Virus record (IMG/VR): IMGVR_UViG_3300029745_000045
Strand: one strand, 5' to 3'
Source: a virus
Lineage: Duplodnaviria; Heunggongvirae; Uroviricota; Caudoviricetes
Length of the DNA: 17,317 nt
This document shows, piece by piece, positions 3,288 through 17,317 of this stretch. Each line of letters starts with the position of its first letter. Within the stretch, counting starts at the first letter, position 1. A program made the position numbers and the translations under genes. A model generated the notes under the pieces. It did no database searches, was not told where the DNA came from, and worked only from the letters and a program-made list of their open reading frames with translations.

Positions 3288-3488
3288 TCATTTCTCGTTA
3301 TTTTTCATGCTGGCCGGGCGCAGATGCGTTGCATCTGTTGCCAGCCTTCTCCTGCAGGCTTCAATAACCCACGCTGAAAAGTTACCGGACCCTTTATGCT
3401 CAAGGGCTATGTTGATTTGTTCAATTATGTGATTGGGGAAACGGATATTGCGGGTTGTGGTTCTGCGGGTCCGGTTTTTCGATGACAT
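3288..3488 (-). CDS. ylcI: YlcI/YnfO-family small protein (DUF3950-like), prophage moron
   Basis: 66 aa, MSSKNRTRRTTTRNIRFPNHIIEQINIALEHKGSGNFSAWVIEACRRRL…, closely resembling recalled E. coli cryptic-prophage YlcI. Opposite orientation to flanking late genes. Confidence 0.65.
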   Translation of the reverse strand: MSSKNRTRRTTTRNIRFPNHIIEQINIALEHKGSGNFSAWVIEACRRRLATDATHLRPASMKNNEK

Positions 3489-3529
3489 ATTTATTTCCTT
3501 TACTGATTGTCATATGACGGGGATTTTAC

Positions 3530-3895
3530 ATGGCTGAGCTTCGTACACTCCAGAGCAGAATCAAAACACTGAATACCCGACGGGTGAATATTCTGAAGGG
3601 TGAACAGCGTCGTGTCAGTGGCAGTGCACGTGTTTCCCTCAAGCGTCATATCTGGCTCAGGGACGCCGGGCAGTGCTGTATCTGTGGTCGTGTGGTTGAC
3701 CTCTGTGACAGTGAACTTGATCACCGAATTGCACTTCAGTTCGGTGGTGGTAATGAGGAGACGAATCTCTGGACGCTCTGTACCGAATGCCATCGACAAA
3801 AGTCTGCTCGTGAAGCGGCGGGTGGTATGCCGGACCCGACGCTGCCGGAGGTGTCCGGAGGTAGTGGCAGAGCGGACGACATCATCGGACTGTAA
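3530..3895 (+). CDS. HNH endonuclease (phage packaging-associated)
   Basis: Cys-rich HNH motif (CCICG…ELDHRIALQFGG…NLWTLCTECHRQK) and position just upstream of the terminase genes, as in HK97-like cos phages. Confidence 0.85.
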   Translation: MAELRTLQSRIKTLNTRRVNILKGEQRRVSGSARVSLKRHIWLRDAGQCCICGRVVDLCDSELDHRIALQFGGGNEETNLWTLCTECHRQKSAREAAGGMPDPTLPEVSGGSGRADDIIGL

Positions 3896-3986
3896 CCCGA
3901 CCCGGGGGGGGATCATCCGGCGTAAAAAACGATCGCTTTGGACACCGCGCCCCCTCTCACGCAGAGAAAAAATTCCCGTTTCAGGG

Positions 3987-4114
3987 CAGTTAACATGTTA
4001 ACTGGCTGCCCGGGCATTTTTGCGGTTTTTATCTTTATTATTCAGTTTGTTGTGCGGAAAAAATGTTAACTGGCTTTTTCAGCAAATGTTAACCAGGCAG
4101 CAGTTAACATTTGC
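3987..4114. repeat. Cluster of GTTAAC-centred palindromes and direct repeats; candidate cos / terminase recognition region
   Basis: Perfect 18-bp palindrome cagttaacatgttaactg (3987-4004); direct repeat ATGTTAACTGGCT at 3996 and 4063; 12-bp inverted arms gcaaatgttaac / gttaacatttgc (4082-4114). A-tract-rich DNA between them. Confidence 0.5.
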
Positions 4115-4184
4115 GGCATGAGACGCCGGGAAAAATGGGCTGAACCATACCCGGCTGAGTGCGTTCTGGACCCGGGAGGAGGCT

Positions 4185-4748
4185 GTGCTGACAACGCAAA
4201 AACGAAAATTTGCGCTGGCGCTCATGTCCGGGAAAAACAAAACAGCGTCAGCCATTGCCGCCGGTTATTCGGCGAAGACCGCCAGGGTTAAAGGCTCGCA
4301 GCTGGCAAAAGATCCGGAGGTGCTTGCGTTTATAGCCCGTAAACAATGCGAGACGGTGGAGGTGGATGAGGTTCCTGTTTACCGGCAGAAAAAATCAGAG
4401 CAGGAGGATAAACCCCGTCGCCGTGAGGCGGCTGCAATACCACAGCCGGACGAAAACAATCCGGAGATGCCACCGTCCGCGGTGATGTCTCCTGGTATTG
4501 AATATATGGAGGATGGTCTTCCCGATCCGGTGAAAGCCATGGGGCGGATCCTGGTGGAAAACCTCTGCATTGATCCGAAACTGGCACTGGATGCGGCCTG
4601 GCGTCTGGCGCAGTTCACGCACCATAAAAAAGGGGATACCGGGAAAAAATCGGCAAAAGGTGATGCCGCGAAAAAAGCGGCTAACCGTTTTGCGGTGCCA
4701 CCGCCACCCAGACTGGTGGTGAATAACGATAATGAGGGCAACGGATGA
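4185..4748 (+). CDS. terS: Terminase small subunit
   Basis: GTG start with GGGAGGAGG RBS. N-terminal HTH-like motif (KTASAIAAGYSAKTARVKGSQLAKDPEVLAFI) typical of phage small terminase subunits. Stop overlaps the large-subunit start (ATGA). Confidence 0.8.
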   Translation: MLTTQKRKFALALMSGKNKTASAIAAGYSAKTARVKGSQLAKDPEVLAFIARKQCETVEVDEVPVYRQKKSEQEDKPRRREAAAIPQPDENNPEMPPSAVMSPGIEYMEDGLPDPVKAMGRILVENLCIDPKLALDAAWRLAQFTHHKKGDTGKKSAKGDAAKKAANRFAVPPPPRLVVNNDNEGNG

Positions 4749-6406
4749 TACCTGTATGGAGCACAGCCTGCCCGGACTGGGCAGAGCGCCTGAAAAAGGG
4801 GCTGTCGATTATTCCGGATCCGATTTATCCGGACGAGGCCGCACATGCCCTGGCGATTTTTAAACAACTGCGGATTGTGGATGCACCTGGTAGCCCTACG
4901 TTCGGGGAGTCCTGTGCACCGTGGGTGTTTGACCTGGTGGCGGCCCTGTTTGGCTCCTACGATGCGCAGACCGGTGTACGCCATATCAAGGAAGTTTTTA
5001 TCCTTATCCCCAAGAAAAACTCGAAGTCCACGCTGGCCGCGGGGATCATGATGACGGCGCTGTTACTGAACTGGCGGCAGGCGGCGGGTTACACGATTCT
5101 GGCCCCGACTGTGGAGGTGGCGGCCAACGCCTTCAACCCTGCCCGGGATATGGTACGACGTGACGATGATCTGGATGACCTCTGCCAGGTACAGACCCAT
5201 ATCCGGACCATCACCCACAGGGTGACAGACACCACCCTGAAGGTGGTGGCAGCCGATCCGAATACGGTGTCCGGTATCAAGTCCGTGGGTACGCTGATTG
5301 ATGAGTTGTGGCTGTTTGGCAAGCAGTGCAAGGCGGAGGACATGTTACGTGAAGCCATAGGCGGCCTTGCCTCCCGCCCGGAAGGGTTTGTGGTGTATAC
5401 GACCACCCAGTCGAATGAACCGCCCGCCGGGGTGTTCAGACAGAAACTGCAGTACGCCCGGGATGTGCGCGACGGCAAAATTCATGATCCGCACTTTCTG
5501 CCGGTGATATTTGAACACCCTCCTGAAATGGTGGAAAGCGGGGCTCACCTGCTGATGGAAAACCTCGCCATGGTCAATCCGAATCTCGGCTATTCAGTGG
5601 ATGAGGCCTTTCTGTACCGGGAGTACCGTAAAGCCCGGGAAGCCGGTGAAGAGACATTCCGGGGGTTCATGTCAAAACACGCCAATGTGGAAATTGGTCT
5701 TGCCCTGCGCTCTGACCGCTGGGCGGGGGCTGATTTCTGGGAAGAGCAGGGCCGTTGTATCAGCCTGGACGATATCCTGCGTCGTGCTGATGTGGTGACG
5801 GTGGGGATTGACGGCGGAGGGCTGGATGATCTGCTGGGGATGTATGTGATTGGGCGTGACCGGGAGACCCGCGAATGGCTGGGCTGGGGCCATGCCTGGG
5901 CGCATGAAACCGCGGTGGTCCGACGGAAGAGCGAGGCGTCCCGGTTTCAGGATCTTGTTGCCTGTGGAGATATGACCATTGTCCGGCGTGTCGGGGATGA
6001 CACGGCGGAAGTGGCGGAATATGTGCGTCGCATTCATGAGGCTGAGTTACTGGAGCATATCGGTATTGACCCGTCAGGGGTGGGGCAGATTCTGGATTCA
6101 CTGGCGGAAGCCGGGATCCCCGACGGAATTGTGGTGGGGATAAGCCAGGGCTGGAAACTGGGCGGGGCCATTAAAACCACCGAGCGCAAACTGGCTGAAG
6201 GGGTGCTGGTGCATGGTGACCAGCCCCTGATGGCCTGGTGTGTCGGCAATGCCCGGGTGGAGCCTAAAGGTAACGCCATTCTTATCACCAAACAGGCCAG
6301 TGGACGGGGAAAAATTGACCCGCTGATGGCGCTGTTCAATGCGGTCTCCCTGATGTCCCTTAACCCGGAACCGAAAAAGAAAGAATATGCGGTTTTTTTC
6401 ATATAA
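4745..6406 (+). CDS. terL: Terminase large subunit
   Basis: 553-aa ORF coupled to terS, size and position typical of a large terminase subunit. Family-level call from memory, not a search. Confidence 0.85.
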   Translation: MIPVWSTACPDWAERLKKGLSIIPDPIYPDEAAHALAIFKQLRIVDAPGSPTFGESCAPWVFDLVAALFGSYDAQTGVRHIKEVFILIPKKNSKSTLAAGIMMTALLLNWRQAAGYTILAPTVEVAANAFNPARDMVRRDDDLDDLCQVQTHIRTITHRVTDTTLKVVAADPNTVSGIKSVGTLIDELWLFGKQCKAEDMLREAIGGLASRPEGFVVYTTTQSNEPPAGVFRQKLQYARDVRDGKIHDPHFLPVIFEHPPEMVESGAHLLMENLAMVNPNLGYSVDEAFLYREYRKAREAGEETFRGFMSKHANVEIGLALRSDRWAGADFWEEQGRCISLDDILRRADVVTVGIDGGGLDDLLGMYVIGRDRETREWLGWGHAWAHETAVVRRKSEASRFQDLVACGDMTIVRRVGDDTAEVAEYVRRIHEAELLEHIGIDPSGVGQILDSLAEAGIPDGIVVGISQGWKLGGAIKTTERKLAEGVLVHGDQPLMAWCVGNARVEPKGNAILITKQASGRGKIDPLMALFNAVSLMSLNPEPKKKEYAVFFI

Positions 6407-6469
6407 CCCTGTTCACACTGTAACCATCACGAACTGCTCCGGCGGTTTTTTTATTTTCAGGAGGCTGAT

Positions 6470-14194: not shown

Positions 14195-16306
14195 ATGGCG
14201 ACGTTACGTGAACTGATTATCAAAATTTCGGCAAATTCGCAGTCATTCCAGTCGGAGATCCAGCGGGCTTCCCGCATGGGCAGTGAATATTACCGGACCC
14301 TGCAGAATGGCGGGCGTCAGGCTGCCGCAGTCGCCCGGGAGCAGCGACGCGCCCTGGCTGAGCTGAACAGCCAGTTGACGGAAATCCGCGCTTCAGCTGC
14401 CGGAACGGCGGGGGCATTTGCAGGTGCCTTTGCCACCGGACACCTGATTTCTCTGGCCGATGAATGGAGTTCCGTGAATGCCCGACTGAAACAGGCGTCG
14501 CAGTCATCCGATGAATTTTCGTCATCACAGAAAGTGCTGATGGATATCAGCCAGCGGACGGGCACGGCATTTTCAGATAATGCGGCCCTGTTTGCCCGCT
14601 CGGCAGCCTCAATGCGTGAATATGGTTACAGTGCTGATGATGTGCTGAAGGTGACGGAGGCCATTTCCACGGGGCTGAAAATCTCCGGTGCCAGTACGGC
14701 AGAGGCGGGCTCGGTGATCACCCAGTTCAGCCAGGCGCTGGCACAGGGTGTGTTACGCGGTGAGGAATTTAATTCGGTCAATGAAAGCGGAGACCGGATC
14801 GTACGTGCACTGGCTGCGGGTATGGGCGTGGCCCGTAAAGACCTTAAGGCGATGGCGGACGACGGCAAACTGACGGCGGATAAAGTCGTTCCTGCGTTAA
14901 TCAGCCAGCTGGGGGTATTGCGTGATGAATATGCCGCCATGCCGGAAACGGTCTCTGACGGGATCACAAAGGTGGAAAACGCCTTTATGGCCTGGGTGGG
15001 TGGCGCGAATGAAGCCAGCGGAGCGACGAAAACGCTCTCCGGCGTGCTGAACGGTGTTGCCGGTAATATTGATAATGTGGCAACAGCCGCGGGGGCGCTG
15101 GTTGCCGTCGGGGTTGCCCGGTACTTTGGCAATATGGCCTCCGGAGCGGTGTCTGCCACGGCAGGACTTGTGACGGCAGCACGTAATGAAGTGGCACTGG
15201 CGGAAGCACAGCTCAGGGGGACGCAGATTGCCACGGCGCGGGCAAGGGCAGCCGTGTACCGTGCACAGCAGGCTGTGGCGGCAGCCCGCGGGACGGAGAT
15301 GCAGATTGCTGCAGAAGCCCGTCTGGCGGCCACACAGGAACGCCTGAACAGAAATATTGCTGCCAGAACCGCAGCCCAGAATGCGCTGAACAGTACAACG
15401 GCGGTGGGCTCACGTCTGATGACTGGTGCGTTGGGACTGGTTGGTGGCGTACCCGGACTGGTGATGCTGGGGGCAGCAGCATGGTATACGCTGTACCAGA
15501 ATCAGGAGCAGGCCAGGGAGTCAGCGCACCAGTATGCACTGACGATAGATGAAATCGCGCATAAAACGCCGTCAATGTCTTTGCCTGAAGCCTCAGATAA
15601 TGAAGGACGAACACGGGCGGCGCTGGCAGAGCAGAACCGGCTGATTGATGAACAGGCCAGCCGGGTGAAATCCCTGCAGGAAAAAATCGCTGGATATCAG
15701 TATGTTCTGGCTAACCCTGGCTGGACAACCGGTGACGGATTCATGATAAACCATCTGACATCGGTGAAGACCGTAACGGAAGGGCTTTCTCAGGCAACAG
15801 AGCAGCTTGCCGTTGAGCAGTCCCGTCTGGCACAGATGCAGGAAAAAGCGCAGTCCATTCACGAACCACTGGGTGAGGGAACGGTTATCCATATTGTGCC
15901 GCGACTGGCCGGAGCCGGAAAGGGCGGACTACAGATTGTGCTGGGGGCAGCTGCCATTGTGGGGGCTTTCTTCACGGCCGGAGCATCAATGGCGTTATGG
16001 GGTTCAGCCCTGGCAGCCGGTGGTTTTTCTGCCACCACGATGCTGTTTTCACTGGGTGCCAGCATGATACTGGGCGGTGTGGCCCAGATGCTGGCCCCGA
16101 AGGCAAAAACACCGGATTACCGCGCAACGGATAACGGCAGACAGAACACGTATTTTTCCTCACTGGACAACATGATTGCCCAGGGCAACCCGATGCCGGT
16201 GCCCTACGGTGAAATGCTGGTTGGTTCACGACGTATCTCTCAGGACATCAGCACCCGTGATGAAGGCGGAGACGGAAAGGTGGTGGTTATTGGTCGACAG
16301 GGATAA
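14195..16306 (+). CDS. Tape measure protein N-terminal portion fused in frame to a lambda gpI-like tail-assembly C-terminus (chimeric, probably a deletion product)
   Basis: Residues ~1-550 fit a tape-measure core pattern (…SGASTAEAGSVITQFSQALAQGVLRGEEFNSVNESGDRIVRALAAGMGV…). Residues ~552-703 (QSIHEPLGEGTVIHIVPRLAGAGKGGLQIVLGAAAIVGAFFTAG…NTYFSSLDNMIAQGNPMPVPYGEMLVGSRRISQDIS…) match recalled lambda gpI C-terminus. At 703 aa it is short for a tape measure. Confidence 0.75.
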   Translation: MATLRELIIKISANSQSFQSEIQRASRMGSEYYRTLQNGGRQAAAVAREQRRALAELNSQLTEIRASAAGTAGAFAGAFATGHLISLADEWSSVNARLKQASQSSDEFSSSQKVLMDISQRTGTAFSDNAALFARSAASMREYGYSADDVLKVTEAISTGLKISGASTAEAGSVITQFSQALAQGVLRGEEFNSVNESGDRIVRALAAGMGVARKDLKAMADDGKLTADKVVPALISQLGVLRDEYAAMPETVSDGITKVENAFMAWVGGANEASGATKTLSGVLNGVAGNIDNVATAAGALVAVGVARYFGNMASGAVSATAGLVTAARNEVALAEAQLRGTQIATARARAAVYRAQQAVAAARGTEMQIAAEARLAATQERLNRNIAARTAAQNALNSTTAVGSRLMTGALGLVGGVPGLVMLGAAAWYTLYQNQEQARESAHQYALTIDEIAHKTPSMSLPEASDNEGRTRAALAEQNRLIDEQASRVKSLQEKIAGYQYVLANPGWTTGDGFMINHLTSVKTVTEGLSQATEQLAVEQSRLAQMQEKAQSIHEPLGEGTVIHIVPRLAGAGKGGLQIVLGAAAIVGAFFTAGASMALWGSALAAGGFSATTMLFSLGASMILGGVAQMLAPKAKTPDYRATDNGRQNTYFSSLDNMIAQGNPMPVPYGEMLVGSRRISQDISTRDEGGDGKVVVIGRQG

Positions 16307-16311
16307 AACAT

Positions 16312-16345
16312 AAAAAAATCCCGCAGTGATCGCGGAGCTGCGGGG
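16312..16345 (-). terminator. Intrinsic terminator on the - strand
   Basis: On the - strand: stem cccgcag / ctgcggg with 11-nt loop, followed by U7 (complement of A7 at 16312-16318). Confidence 0.55.
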
Positions 16346-16409
16346 ACAGACAAATGAAGATTAATGTTAAGGAGTTGTTTTTGTTACTCGGGCAAAAAAA
16401 CACTAACGC
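16312..16409 (-). ncRNA. Candidate ~100-nt small RNA, antisense and convergent to the tape-measure/gpI gene
   Basis: Bounded by a - strand promoter (-35 TTCACA at 16438-16443, 16-nt spacer, -10 TATAAT at 16416-21) and the terminator at 16312-16345. Body is A/C- and U-rich (…GCCCGAGUAACAAAAACAACUCCUUAACAUUAAUCUUCAUUUGUCUGU…). No long ORF. Confidence 0.4.
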
Positions 16410-16415
16410 AGCGAA

Positions 16416-16443
16416 ATTATAAGCGCCACAGTCAGTGTGTGAA
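16416..16443 (-). promoter_or_regulatory. Near-consensus sigma70 promoter on the - strand (TTCACA-N16-TATAAT)
   Basis: Reverse complement of 16416-16443 reads TTCACA cactgactgtggcgct TATAAT: 5/6 match at -35, 6/6 at -10, 16-nt spacer. Confidence 0.45.
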
Positions 16444-16516
16444 AATGTGAAGATATTCAGAATTTTTATGCCATTACCGGTTTTAACCAACAGGATTATC
16501 GGTGGGCATGAAAGAA

Positions 16517-16551
16517 AACCCCGGTATCTGCTGATACCGGGGTTTCTGTTT
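16517..16551. terminator. Strong hairpin, possible bidirectional terminator, ~100 nt upstream of J
   Basis: Perfect 11-bp stem aaccccggtat / ataccggggtt with 6-nt loop (16517-16544), T-rich on the + side (TCTGTTT) and on the - side (UUUUCUUUC). Confidence 0.55.
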
Positions 16552-16648
16552 AGCATGGCAGAAATGTGTTTCATGCTTTTCGGGCGAAGGATATCCGACT
16601 TCTGTACGGAATGGCAAGTGGCGGTTAATTTATTCAGGGGAAGGCTGT

Positions 16649-17317
16649 ATGGGAAAAGGTGGCGGTAAGGCACACACGCCTCGTGAGGCGAAGGATAATC
16701 TCAAATCCACGCAGATGATGAGCGTGATTGATGCGATTGGTGAGGGACCCATTGAAGGTCCGGTGAAAGGCCTGCAGAGTATTCTGGTGAACAAAACCCC
16801 GCTGACGGACACGGACGGTAATCCCGTGATACACGGTGTGACTGCGGTCTGGCGTGCCGGGGAGCAGGAGCAGACACCGCCGGAAGGCTTTGAGTCCTCC
16901 GGGGCGGAAACCGGACCAGGCGTGGAGGTGACGAAGGCAAAGCCGGTGACGCGCACCATTACGTCCGCGAACATTGACCGCCTGCGGGTGACCTTCGGGG
17001 TGCAGTCACTGGTGGAGACCACCTCAAAGGGTGACCGTAACCCGACGTCTGTCCGCCTGCTGATTCAGCTTGAGCGTGGTGGTAAATGGATGACGGAAAA
17101 GGATGTCACCATTAACGGCAAGACCACCTCGCAGTTCCTGGCGTCGGTGATTCTGGATAATCTGCCGCCCCGGCCCTTTAACATCCGGATGGTCAGGGAG
17201 ACGGCGGACAGCACCACGGACCAGCTGCAGAATAAGACGCTCTGGTCGTCATACACCGAAATCATCGATGTGAAACAGTGCTACCCGAACACGGCCATTG
17301 TGGGGCTGCAGGTGGAT
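16649..17317 (+). CDS. J: Host specificity protein J (central tail fibre), N-terminal 223 codons; continues beyond the window
   Basis: ATG at 16649 with GGGGAAGG RBS. Translation MGKGGGKAHTPREAKDNLKSTQMMSVIDAIGEGPIEGPVKGLQSILVNKTPL…NIRMVRETADSTTDQLQNKTLWSSYTEIIDVKQCYPNTAIVGLQVD closely matches the recalled lambda J N-terminus. Not in the ORF track because it has no stop in the window. Confidence 0.9.
   Translation, partial: MGKGGGKAHTPREAKDNLKSTQMMSVIDAIGEGPIEGPVKGLQSILVNKTPLTDTDGNPVIHGVTAVWRAGEQEQTPPEGFESSGAETGPGVEVTKAKPVTRTITSANIDRLRVTFGVQSLVETTSKGDRNPTSVRLLIQLERGGKWMTEKDVTINGKTTSQFLASVILDNLPPRPFNIRMVRETADSTTDQLQNKTLWSSYTEIIDVKQCYPNTAIVGLQVD

What the first reader, a model, noticed from the sequence alone, without database searches (positions are those of the whole stretch)
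14195..16306. Tape measure fused in frame to a gpI-like C-terminus; tail-tip genes between them are absent
The N-terminal ~550 aa look like a tape measure, while the last ~150 aa align with the recalled C-terminal half of lambda gpI (VIHIVPR…GGLQIVLGAAAI…NTYFSSLDNM…YGEMLVGSR). The next gene is J. In lambda-like tails H is followed by M, L, K, I and then J, so a single deletion appears to have removed the tape-measure C-terminus, the M/L/K equivalents and the gpI N-terminus. The junction is roughly 15815-15850. The prophage is then probably unable to build tails, or the chimeric gene has been kept for another role.
Basis: partly seen in the sequence, partly recalled or inferred. Interest (0 to 1): 0.6.

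Follow-up and report, generated by a model that had tools for sequence, protein, structure and literature searches.

The report
Deletion-made tape-measure/gpI fusion in prophage
One deletion in an E. coli lambda-like prophage removed half the tape-measure gene, the tail-tip genes M, L and K and the start of gene I, leaving an in-frame hybrid gene; this is ordinary prophage decay, not a new kind of protein.

Summary
ORF 14195-16306 (703 aa) consists of residues 1-555 of an HK97-type tape measure protein joined in frame to residues 46-193 of a gpI-type tail-tip protein. The gpI part is 69% identical to lambda gpI 78-223 (E 7e-61). Intact relatives (phage vB_EcoS-783R2; the E. coli 2018-166 prophage, 98.8-100% identical) carry H(1080 aa)-M-L-K-I-spacer-J. 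The window lacks 3,495 bp (5,063 bp in the relative that carries an ompC moron). There is a single breakpoint, at a 4-nt microhomology (TTCA, 15858-15861). Both breakpoints cut through Pfam domains. Nothing resembling the deleted parts lies elsewhere in the window. The junction is absent from 5,426 complete E. coli genomes and 50,697 phage records. It recurs on 11 fetched contigs (15 were read as carrying the protein) from draft E. coli genomes and gut metagenomes. Those contigs carry further lesions: head-gene deletions and truncated J. This is a real, recent lineage of a decaying, tail-defective prophage. The gene is identical at nucleotide level in 10 loci. The one divergent copy differs only by a recombination patch, so nothing indicates selection for a new role. 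Low interest.

The parts
14195..16306 (+). Chimeric ORF, 703 aa plus stop: tape measure residues 1-555 joined to gpI-type residues 46-193
14195..15861 (+). Segment derived from the tape measure gene (H): codons 1-555 plus 2 nt. It is 99.8% identical to H of vB_EcoS-783R2. It carries the TMP_3 domain and the first 162 of 295 positions of the HK97 tape-measure domain.
15858..15861 (+). Deletion junction: the 4-nt microhomology TTCA shared by both parental sequences. The hybrid codon 556 is CAC (His).
15862..16306 (+). Segment derived from gene I (residues 46-193 plus stop). It is 100% identical to the I gene of the E. coli 2018-166 prophage and equivalent to lambda gpI 78-223. This covers the two hydrophobic helices, the plug and the beta-strands that bind gpJ. 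Only about the last 19 residues of the N-terminal Lambda_tail_I domain remain.
   Evidence: PMC11101478, PMC10721106
16307..16648 (.). I-J spacer. It is not part of the deletion: it is conserved and unannotated in at least 1,422 of 5,426 complete E. coli genomes and present in intact relatives.
16649..17317 (+). 5' part of the J gene (223 codons, running off the window). It matches the FNIII-A_GpJ domain, and its start aligns with the start of lambda J.
13468..14147 (+). Intact tail assembly chaperone genes (G-like Phage_TAC_1 and Phage_tail_T) directly upstream, as in intact relatives

Best explanation
This is a scar of prophage decay. In a lambdoid E. coli prophage with HK97-type head genes and a lambda-type tail tip, one illegitimate recombination event joined codon 555 of the tape measure gene to codon 46 of gene I. 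The crossover used 4 nt of microhomology (TTCA). It removed at least 3.5 kb: the tape measure C-terminal half, M, L, K and most of the N-terminal domain of I. The event happened to preserve the reading frame (prior chance one in three), so gene callers report a 703-aa 'tape measure protein'. The gene lies in the late operon, so it would be made only after induction (inferred). Without the distal tail protein M, the hub protein L, K and the tip-binding C-terminus of H, the element cannot assemble a tail tip or a tail on its own. This last step is inferred from lambda genetics. The element could at best produce filled heads, which would need tails from a co-resident lambdoid prophage. The lesion is young and is inherited within a lineage that keeps losing further phage genes.
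For: There is a single breakpoint with a 4-nt overlap against two independent intact relatives. Those relatives have H(1080 aa)-M-L-K-I-spacer-J. Both breakpoints fall inside domains. HK97_TLTM is cut at position 162 of 295 and Tape_meas_lam_C is lost. Lambda_tail_I (residues 2-64 of intact I) is reduced to its last 19 residues and no longer scores. The deleted parts have no tblastn match anywhere in the window. All other genes in the window are full length and collinear with the relatives. The exact 703-aa protein was read on 15 contigs, of which 10 places were fetched. They come from different isolates, metagenomes and assemblers. An eleventh contig holds the exact junction. The feature is therefore real. 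The 10 loci are nucleotide-identical across the gene, with 1-2 SNPs in 6-13 kb of flank. Some of the same lineage carry further deletions: window 3372-10187 is deleted in L007/L008, and everything left of 11395 is replaced in L003/4/9/11/12. J is truncated at aa 759 in L003/L009 and at aa 598 in L005. No other protein in 5.8 billion clusters spans an H/I junction. Many singleton chimeras join L, K, V or terminase fragments to the same I C-terminus, which shows that such deletion products are common. Morphogenesis-defective lambdoid prophages, and their complementation in trans, are documented for E. coli O157 (PMC2669165).
Against: Nothing contradicts it directly. Tail deficiency is inferred from lambda genetics and has not been observed. 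In one contig (L015) the same junction sits next to a different I 3' end and spacer and an intact 1171-aa J ORF. The allele has therefore survived at least one recombination event and is not confined to a single decaying context. The retained I segment is exactly the part of gpI that lies in the virion lumen directly under the tape measure C-terminus (PMC10721106, PMC11101478), so the chimera is topologically less absurd than a random fusion.
Confidence: 0.9

Rival explanations
1. The chimera is a functional protein kept by selection. One version: it works as a shortened tape measure with a built-in gpI plug, used together with M, L and K from a helper prophage. Another version: it is a dominant-negative protein that poisons tail-tip assembly of co-resident or competing lambdoid phages by occupying the gpI site on gpJ.
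For: The frame is preserved. The retained I segment equals the whole virion-resident part of gpI, which binds gpJ and sits directly beneath the C-terminus of the tape measure (PMC10721106, PMC11101478). The junction persists in four structural contexts, one of them with an intact J.
Against: There is no sequence variation that arose after the deletion on which selection could be tested. The 16 synonymous and 1 non-synonymous differences in L015 are clustered in the last 250 nt and continue into the spacer and J. They are therefore an imported allele of a functional I gene, not evidence about the fusion. Both breakpoints cut domains. The chance of keeping the frame is one in three. Other random chimeras ending in the same I segment are common. 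The junction is absent from all complete E. coli genomes, phage records and viral contigs searched.
Confidence: 0.05
2. The junction arose by illegitimate recombination between two different co-resident prophages (H of one, I of another), with loss of the DNA between them, rather than by a deletion within one prophage.
For: The two sides differ in their similarity to the same relatives. Against E. coli 2018-166 the left side is 98.8% and the right side 100% identical. Against 783R2 the left side is 97.9% and the right side 95.3% identical. E. coli strains often carry several near-identical lambdoid tail modules (PMC2669165).
Against: Such mosaic identity is normal among lambdoid phages and needs no second prophage. 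Gene order and orientation on both sides are those of one prophage. The outcome for the gene is the same either way.
Confidence: 0.1
3. The fusion is an assembly artefact, or the natural gene architecture of a functional phage lineage that lacks M, L and K.
For: None beyond the fact that the database annotates it simply as 'tail tape measure protein'.
Against: The identical junction appears in contigs from SPAdes-type and MEGAHIT-type assemblies, NCBI isolate genomes and Logan assemblies. The junction has only 4 nt of repeat, too little to cause an assembly collapse. No diverged homologue shares the architecture. Relatives 98-100% identical carry the full gene set.
Confidence: 0.02

Closest known systems
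Tape measure protein of HK97-like/Stx-phage-type lambdoid phages (e.g. vB_EcoS-783R2 URE76800.1, Stx2 phage 1717 gp67; Pfam TMP_3 + Phage_HK97_TLTM + Tape_meas_lam_C)
   Same: Residues 1-555 are 95-99.8% identical at DNA level to these genes. The upstream G/T chaperone genes are the same.
   Different: The C-terminal 525 residues are missing. These include half of the HK97_TLTM domain and the Tape_meas_lam_C domain, that is, the end that sits in the tail tip (PMC10721106).
Lambda gpI, tail tip assembly / insertion (plug) protein (PDB 8IYK, 8IYL, 8XCG)
   Same: The last 148 aa are 69% identical to gpI 78-223. They cover hydrophobic helices H1/H2, the plug and the beta-strands that bind gpJ (PMC11101478).
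   Different: The N-terminal Lambda_tail_I domain is missing apart from its last 19 residues, and the segment has no start codon of its own. It is fused to tape measure sequence, and the neighbouring K gene is gone.
Defective lambdoid prophages of E. coli with morphogenesis lesions (the Sakai Sp prophage pool; Asadulghani et al. 2009, PMC2669165)
   Same: It is a lambdoid prophage with deletions in essential morphogenetic genes. Other lambdoid tail modules that could complement it in trans are common in E. coli genomes.
   Different: This particular H/I junction is not in any complete E. coli genome or phage record searched. Whether its carriers hold a helper prophage was not determined.

Membership tests
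Phage tail tape measure protein (HK97/lambdoid type) | N-terminal TMP_3 domain | tested here: met
   PF20155 matches residues 83-272, E 2.8e-58
Phage tail tape measure protein (HK97/lambdoid type) | Complete central HK97 tape-measure domain and C-terminal Tape_meas_lam_C domain (the tip-proximal end) | tested here: not met
   PF06120 is matched only over profile positions 1-162 of 295, and PF09718 is absent. The intact relative has 1-292 of 295 plus PF09718 at residues 862-933.
Phage tail tape measure protein (HK97/lambdoid type) | Followed by the distal tail protein and hub genes (M, L) with which it forms the tail initiator | tested here: not met
   There is no M, L or K anywhere in the window. 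They are present in the relatives.
Lambda gpI tail tip protein | N-terminal Lambda_tail_I domain (PF06805) | tested here: not met
   The fusion C-terminus has no Pfam hit even at E<=1. Intact I matches PF06805 at residues 2-64, and the fusion begins at residue 46.
Lambda gpI tail tip protein | C-terminal hydrophobic helices, plug and gpJ-binding strands, as resolved in the virion | tested here: met
   It aligns with 8iyk_I residues 77-223, E 8.9e-62. Hydrophobic segments lie at residues 577-601 and 616-634.
Lambda gpI tail tip protein | Separate gene located between K and J | tested here: not met
   It has no start of its own and K is deleted. The downstream spacer and J are conserved.
Defective (cryptic) lambdoid prophage | Collinear with intact phages but lacking essential genes | tested here: met
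Defective (cryptic) lambdoid prophage | Further independent inactivating lesions in copies of the same lineage | tested here: met
   Head-gene deletions and J truncations occur in L003-L009.
Defective (cryptic) lambdoid prophage | No tailed infectious particles on induction | not testable with these tools
   This needs induction and electron microscopy.
F-type (lambda-tail-like) tailocin | Complete tail and tail-tip gene set without head genes | tested here: not met
   M, L and K are absent. Terminase, capsid and portal genes are present in the window.

The most novel reading that the evidence does not exclude
The in-frame H(1-555)-I(46-193) protein is made on induction. Because it keeps the complete gpJ-binding plug module of gpI, it enters the tail tips of co-resident lambdoid prophages. 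There it either blocks their tail assembly (competition between prophages) or acts as a half-length tape measure that gives short tails.
Probability: 0.04. Interest if true: 0.5.

Novelty: new member of a known kind. Interest (0 to 1): 0.12.

Why it matters
It matters little beyond annotation. The protein is deposited as an ordinary 'tail tape measure protein' (EEY5188073.1 and others), but it is a deletion chimera that marks a tail-defective prophage. Prophage-completeness predictors and tape-measure length/tail length surveys should not count it as an intact gene. The junction is a convenient clonal marker for one lineage of decaying prophage. It also shows how quickly further deletions follow a first disabling lesion. 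Only if the chimera interfered with the tails of neighbouring prophages would it be of wider interest.

Tried and rejected
A Pfam search of the C-terminal 152 aa alone found nothing even at E<=1. This is because Pfam's Lambda_tail_I profile models only the N-terminal domain, so it does not count against gpI homology. BLASTP against lambda H shows no significant similarity: the tape measure is of the HK97 type, not the lambda type. I searched for the junction in complete E. coli genomes, phage records, IMG/VR viral contigs and species-representative genomes, and found none. A selection test on the fusion was not possible. Ten loci are nucleotide-identical, and the only diverged copy differs by an imported patch. 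The tailocin reading was rejected because M, L and K are absent and head genes are present. Rfam searches of the window and of the I-J spacer found no family at gathering score. The literature check for a known sRNA in the spacer was inconclusive. I could not determine whether carrier strains hold a helper prophage, because the tools do not allow a search within one assembly.

Full report
WHAT IS THERE. The window is the late region of a lambdoid E. coli prophage. In order it holds:
- holin, lysozyme, an antirepressor and Rz;
- an HNH endonuclease and the terminase small and large subunits;
- a protease-capsid fusion gene, then a portal gene followed by a second ORF;
- head-tail connector genes and the major tail protein;
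- G- and T-type tail chaperones;
- the ORF in question, a 342-nt spacer, and the start of J.

ORF 14195-16306 encodes 703 aa.

CHECK OF THE OBSERVATION. Residues 83-272 match Pfam TMP_3 (E 2.8e-58). Residues 395-557 match the HK97 tape-measure domain, but only profile positions 1-162 of 295. The last 148 residues are 69% identical to lambda gpI 78-223 (E 7e-61). They also match the gpI chain of the solved lambda tail-tip structures over residues 77-223 (E 8.9e-62). A Pfam search of the C-terminus alone finds nothing. This is because PF06805 models only the N-terminal domain of gpI: it matches residues 2-64 of the intact 193-aa homologue. J begins at 16649. Its first bases align with the start of lambda J, and it carries the FNIII-A_GpJ domain.

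MAPPING THE LESION. Megablast against 50,697 phage records shows that every relative matches the tape-measure part only up to query base 1667, which is window 15861.
- Phage vB_EcoS-783R2 (ON470626.1) is collinear with the window from the terminase onward. It has H (1080 aa), M, L, K, I (193 aa), a 343-bp spacer and J.
- Window 5196-15861 aligns with that record up to codon 555 of H. Window 15858-17317 resumes in codon 46 of I. The 3,495 bp between are missing.
- The prophage of E. coli 2018-166 (NZ_CP075632.1) gives the same breakpoints. It is 98.8% identical on the left and 100% identical on the right. It carries an ompC moron between M and L, so the gap is 5,063 bp there.
- At the junction the H parent reads ...TCCATTCA|GGAT, the I parent reads ...CGCCTTCA|CGAACCA, and the window reads TCCATTCACGAACCA. 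The crossover lies in the 4-nt microhomology TTCA, and codon 556 (CAC) is a hybrid.
- The phase is preserved: 2 nt from H plus 1 nt from I.
- The lost H C-terminus, M, L, K and I N-terminus have no tblastn match anywhere in the window.

IS IT REAL, AND HOW COMMON IS IT? A 400-bp probe across the junction is covered by none of 5,426 complete E. coli genomes. No phage record spans it. An exact 34-mer across it is absent from IMG/VR viral contigs and from species-representative genomes. However, the exact 703-aa protein was read on 15 contigs, of which 10 places were fetched. These come from three NCBI E. coli draft assemblies, several gut metagenomes and a Logan assembly, built by different assemblers. 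One further metagenome contig holds the exact junction. A 4-nt repeat cannot cause an assembly collapse, so the junction is real. The protein cluster at 90% identity has a single member sequence, annotated 'tail tape measure protein'.

THE LINEAGE IS DECAYING. Across the 10 loci the chimeric gene is identical at nucleotide level, and the flanks differ by 1-2 SNPs in 6-13 kb. Despite this, the loci fall into distinct structural variants:
- Variant A: the same layout as the window (L005, L006).
- Variant B: a second deletion that removes window 3372-10187, that is, terminase, capsid and most of the portal region (L007, L008).
- Variant C: everything left of window 11395 is replaced by early-region genes and a DUF1737 fusion (L003, L004, L009, L011, L012).
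- Variant D: the extra metagenome contig L015. It has the same junction but a different 3' end of I, a shorter spacer and an intact 1171-aa J ORF.

J is also damaged in some copies. In L003/L009 a roughly 3-kb deletion joins J to the end of the tail-fibre gene, giving a stop at aa 759. In L005, which is otherwise window-like, J homology ends abruptly and the ORF stops at aa 598.

L015's 17 differences in the chimeric gene (16 synonymous, 1 non-synonymous) are all in the last 250 nt and continue into the spacer and J. They are an imported allele of a functional I gene, not evidence of selection on the fusion.

IS THIS ARCHITECTURE NATURAL? A search with the 268 aa around the junction against 5.8 billion protein clusters returned 948 hits. 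None of the 120 best spans both halves: I-type hits cover about 55% and tape-measure hits about 46%. The same list holds many singleton proteins in which other phage genes are fused to the same I C-terminus. Examples are L-I proteins of 373 and 394 aa, K-I proteins, a tail-tube-I protein and terminase-I proteins. I infer these architectures from the tabulated lengths, Pfam domains and coverage. Deletion chimeras of this kind are evidently frequent in E. coli prophage remnants. In our case both breakpoints cut Pfam domains, which is what random breakage predicts and what a designed domain fusion does not.

HOW IT WORKS (BEST EXPLANATION). One illegitimate, microhomology-mediated deletion produced an in-frame chimeric ORF in the late operon. 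That the deletion and the fusion exist is shown here. That the prophage cannot make tails is inferred. In lambda, H, M, L, K and I are all required for tail assembly (classical genetics, from established knowledge). Structures show gpM as the distal tail protein, gpL as a hub protein, and the C-terminus of gpH seated in the tip on a gpI trimer that plugs the tube and binds gpJ by beta-sheet augmentation (PMC10721106, PMC11101478). The element keeps all head and packaging genes in the window. It might therefore still fill heads, which would need tails from another lambdoid prophage. Such complementation within the E. coli O157 prophage pool is documented (PMC2669165). Whether carrier strains hold a helper was not testable here.

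RIVALS.
- A selected new function. The retained I segment is precisely the virion-resident module that lies directly under the tape-measure C-terminus. A tape-measure-to-plug fusion is therefore topologically conceivable and could interfere with the tails of neighbouring prophages. No datum supports this, and the frame had a one-in-three chance of surviving. I give it about 5%.
- Recombination between two prophages instead of a deletion within one. This is possible, given the unequal identities of the two flanks, but it does not change what the gene is.
- An assembly artefact or a natural architecture. Both are excluded by the points above.

COMPARISON AND NOVELTY. The N-terminal part is a truncated HK97-type tape measure. 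The C-terminal part is a gpI protein without most of its N-terminal domain. The whole is one more example of a morphogenesis-defective lambdoid prophage. This particular junction appears in none of the complete E. coli genomes, phage records or papers I searched, but the kind of event is entirely familiar. Interest is low. The main practical value is to flag a mis-annotated 'tape measure protein' and to provide a clonal marker.

Noticed in passing
window 16307-16648 (candidate transcript about 16408 down to 16312, minus strand): The I-J spacer is conserved and unannotated in at least 1,422 of 5,426 complete E. coli genomes. On the minus strand it has a near-consensus sigma-70 promoter (TTCACA-16-TATAAT, 16443 to 16416) and a terminator hairpin followed by a run of seven T (16336 to 16320). 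This suggests an antisense small RNA of about 95 nt. It has no Rfam family, and its fold z-score is only -1.16. It might relate to the prophage 'Pas' sRNAs, which lie next to tail genes (bioRxiv 10.64898/2026.05.13.724894), but no sequence comparison was possible.
   Followed up: partly
window 16517-16553: A strong GC-rich hairpin (CCCCGGTATC-TGCT-GATACCGGGG) is flanked by A and T runs. It looks like a bidirectional terminator in the middle of the late operon, just upstream of J. In L015 this half of the spacer is replaced by a different, shorter sequence with its own hairpin.
   Followed up: no
window 8619-11203: The portal region consists of a 454-aa portal ORF (8619-9983) and a 407-aa ORF in another frame (9980-11203), overlapping by 4 nt. 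NCBI's PGAP annotation pipeline calls the same arrangement a 'frameshifted' portal pseudogene in E. coli 2018-166. Phage 1717 annotates two genes. The 783R2 record has a 1-nt difference and one long CDS. Whether this is two genes, a programmed frameshift or an error in 783R2 was not resolved.
   Followed up: no
window 10145-10737: A 162-bp tandem repeat (3.7 copies, 90% matches) lies inside the 407-aa ORF. Its copy number varies between otherwise near-identical loci: 353 aa in L006, and shorter again in L015.
   Followed up: partly
L014 16617-17780 (E. coli 2018-166 prophage): The closest intact relative carries a full ompC porin gene as a moron between tail genes M and L.
   Followed up: no
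L005 14243-14349: In this otherwise window-like contig, J homology stops at codon 596. It is followed by 107 nt that match no complete E. coli genome by megablast. The origin of this sequence is unknown. The window itself ends before this point.
   Followed up: partly
proteins P0003, P0004, P0010, P0011, P0104, P0107, P0119: Many singleton E. coli proteins join fragments of other phage genes (L, K, tail tube, terminase subunits, a methyltransferase) to the same gpI C-terminal 148 aa. This suggests that the I C-terminus-J end of lambdoid prophages is often the surviving right-hand side of large deletions.
   Followed up: no
L004 12649-12772 (equivalent to window 16843-16966): A cluster of 14 SNPs within 124 nt of J occurs in an otherwise identical locus. 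This is a short gene-conversion patch, presumably from another prophage's J.
   Followed up: no
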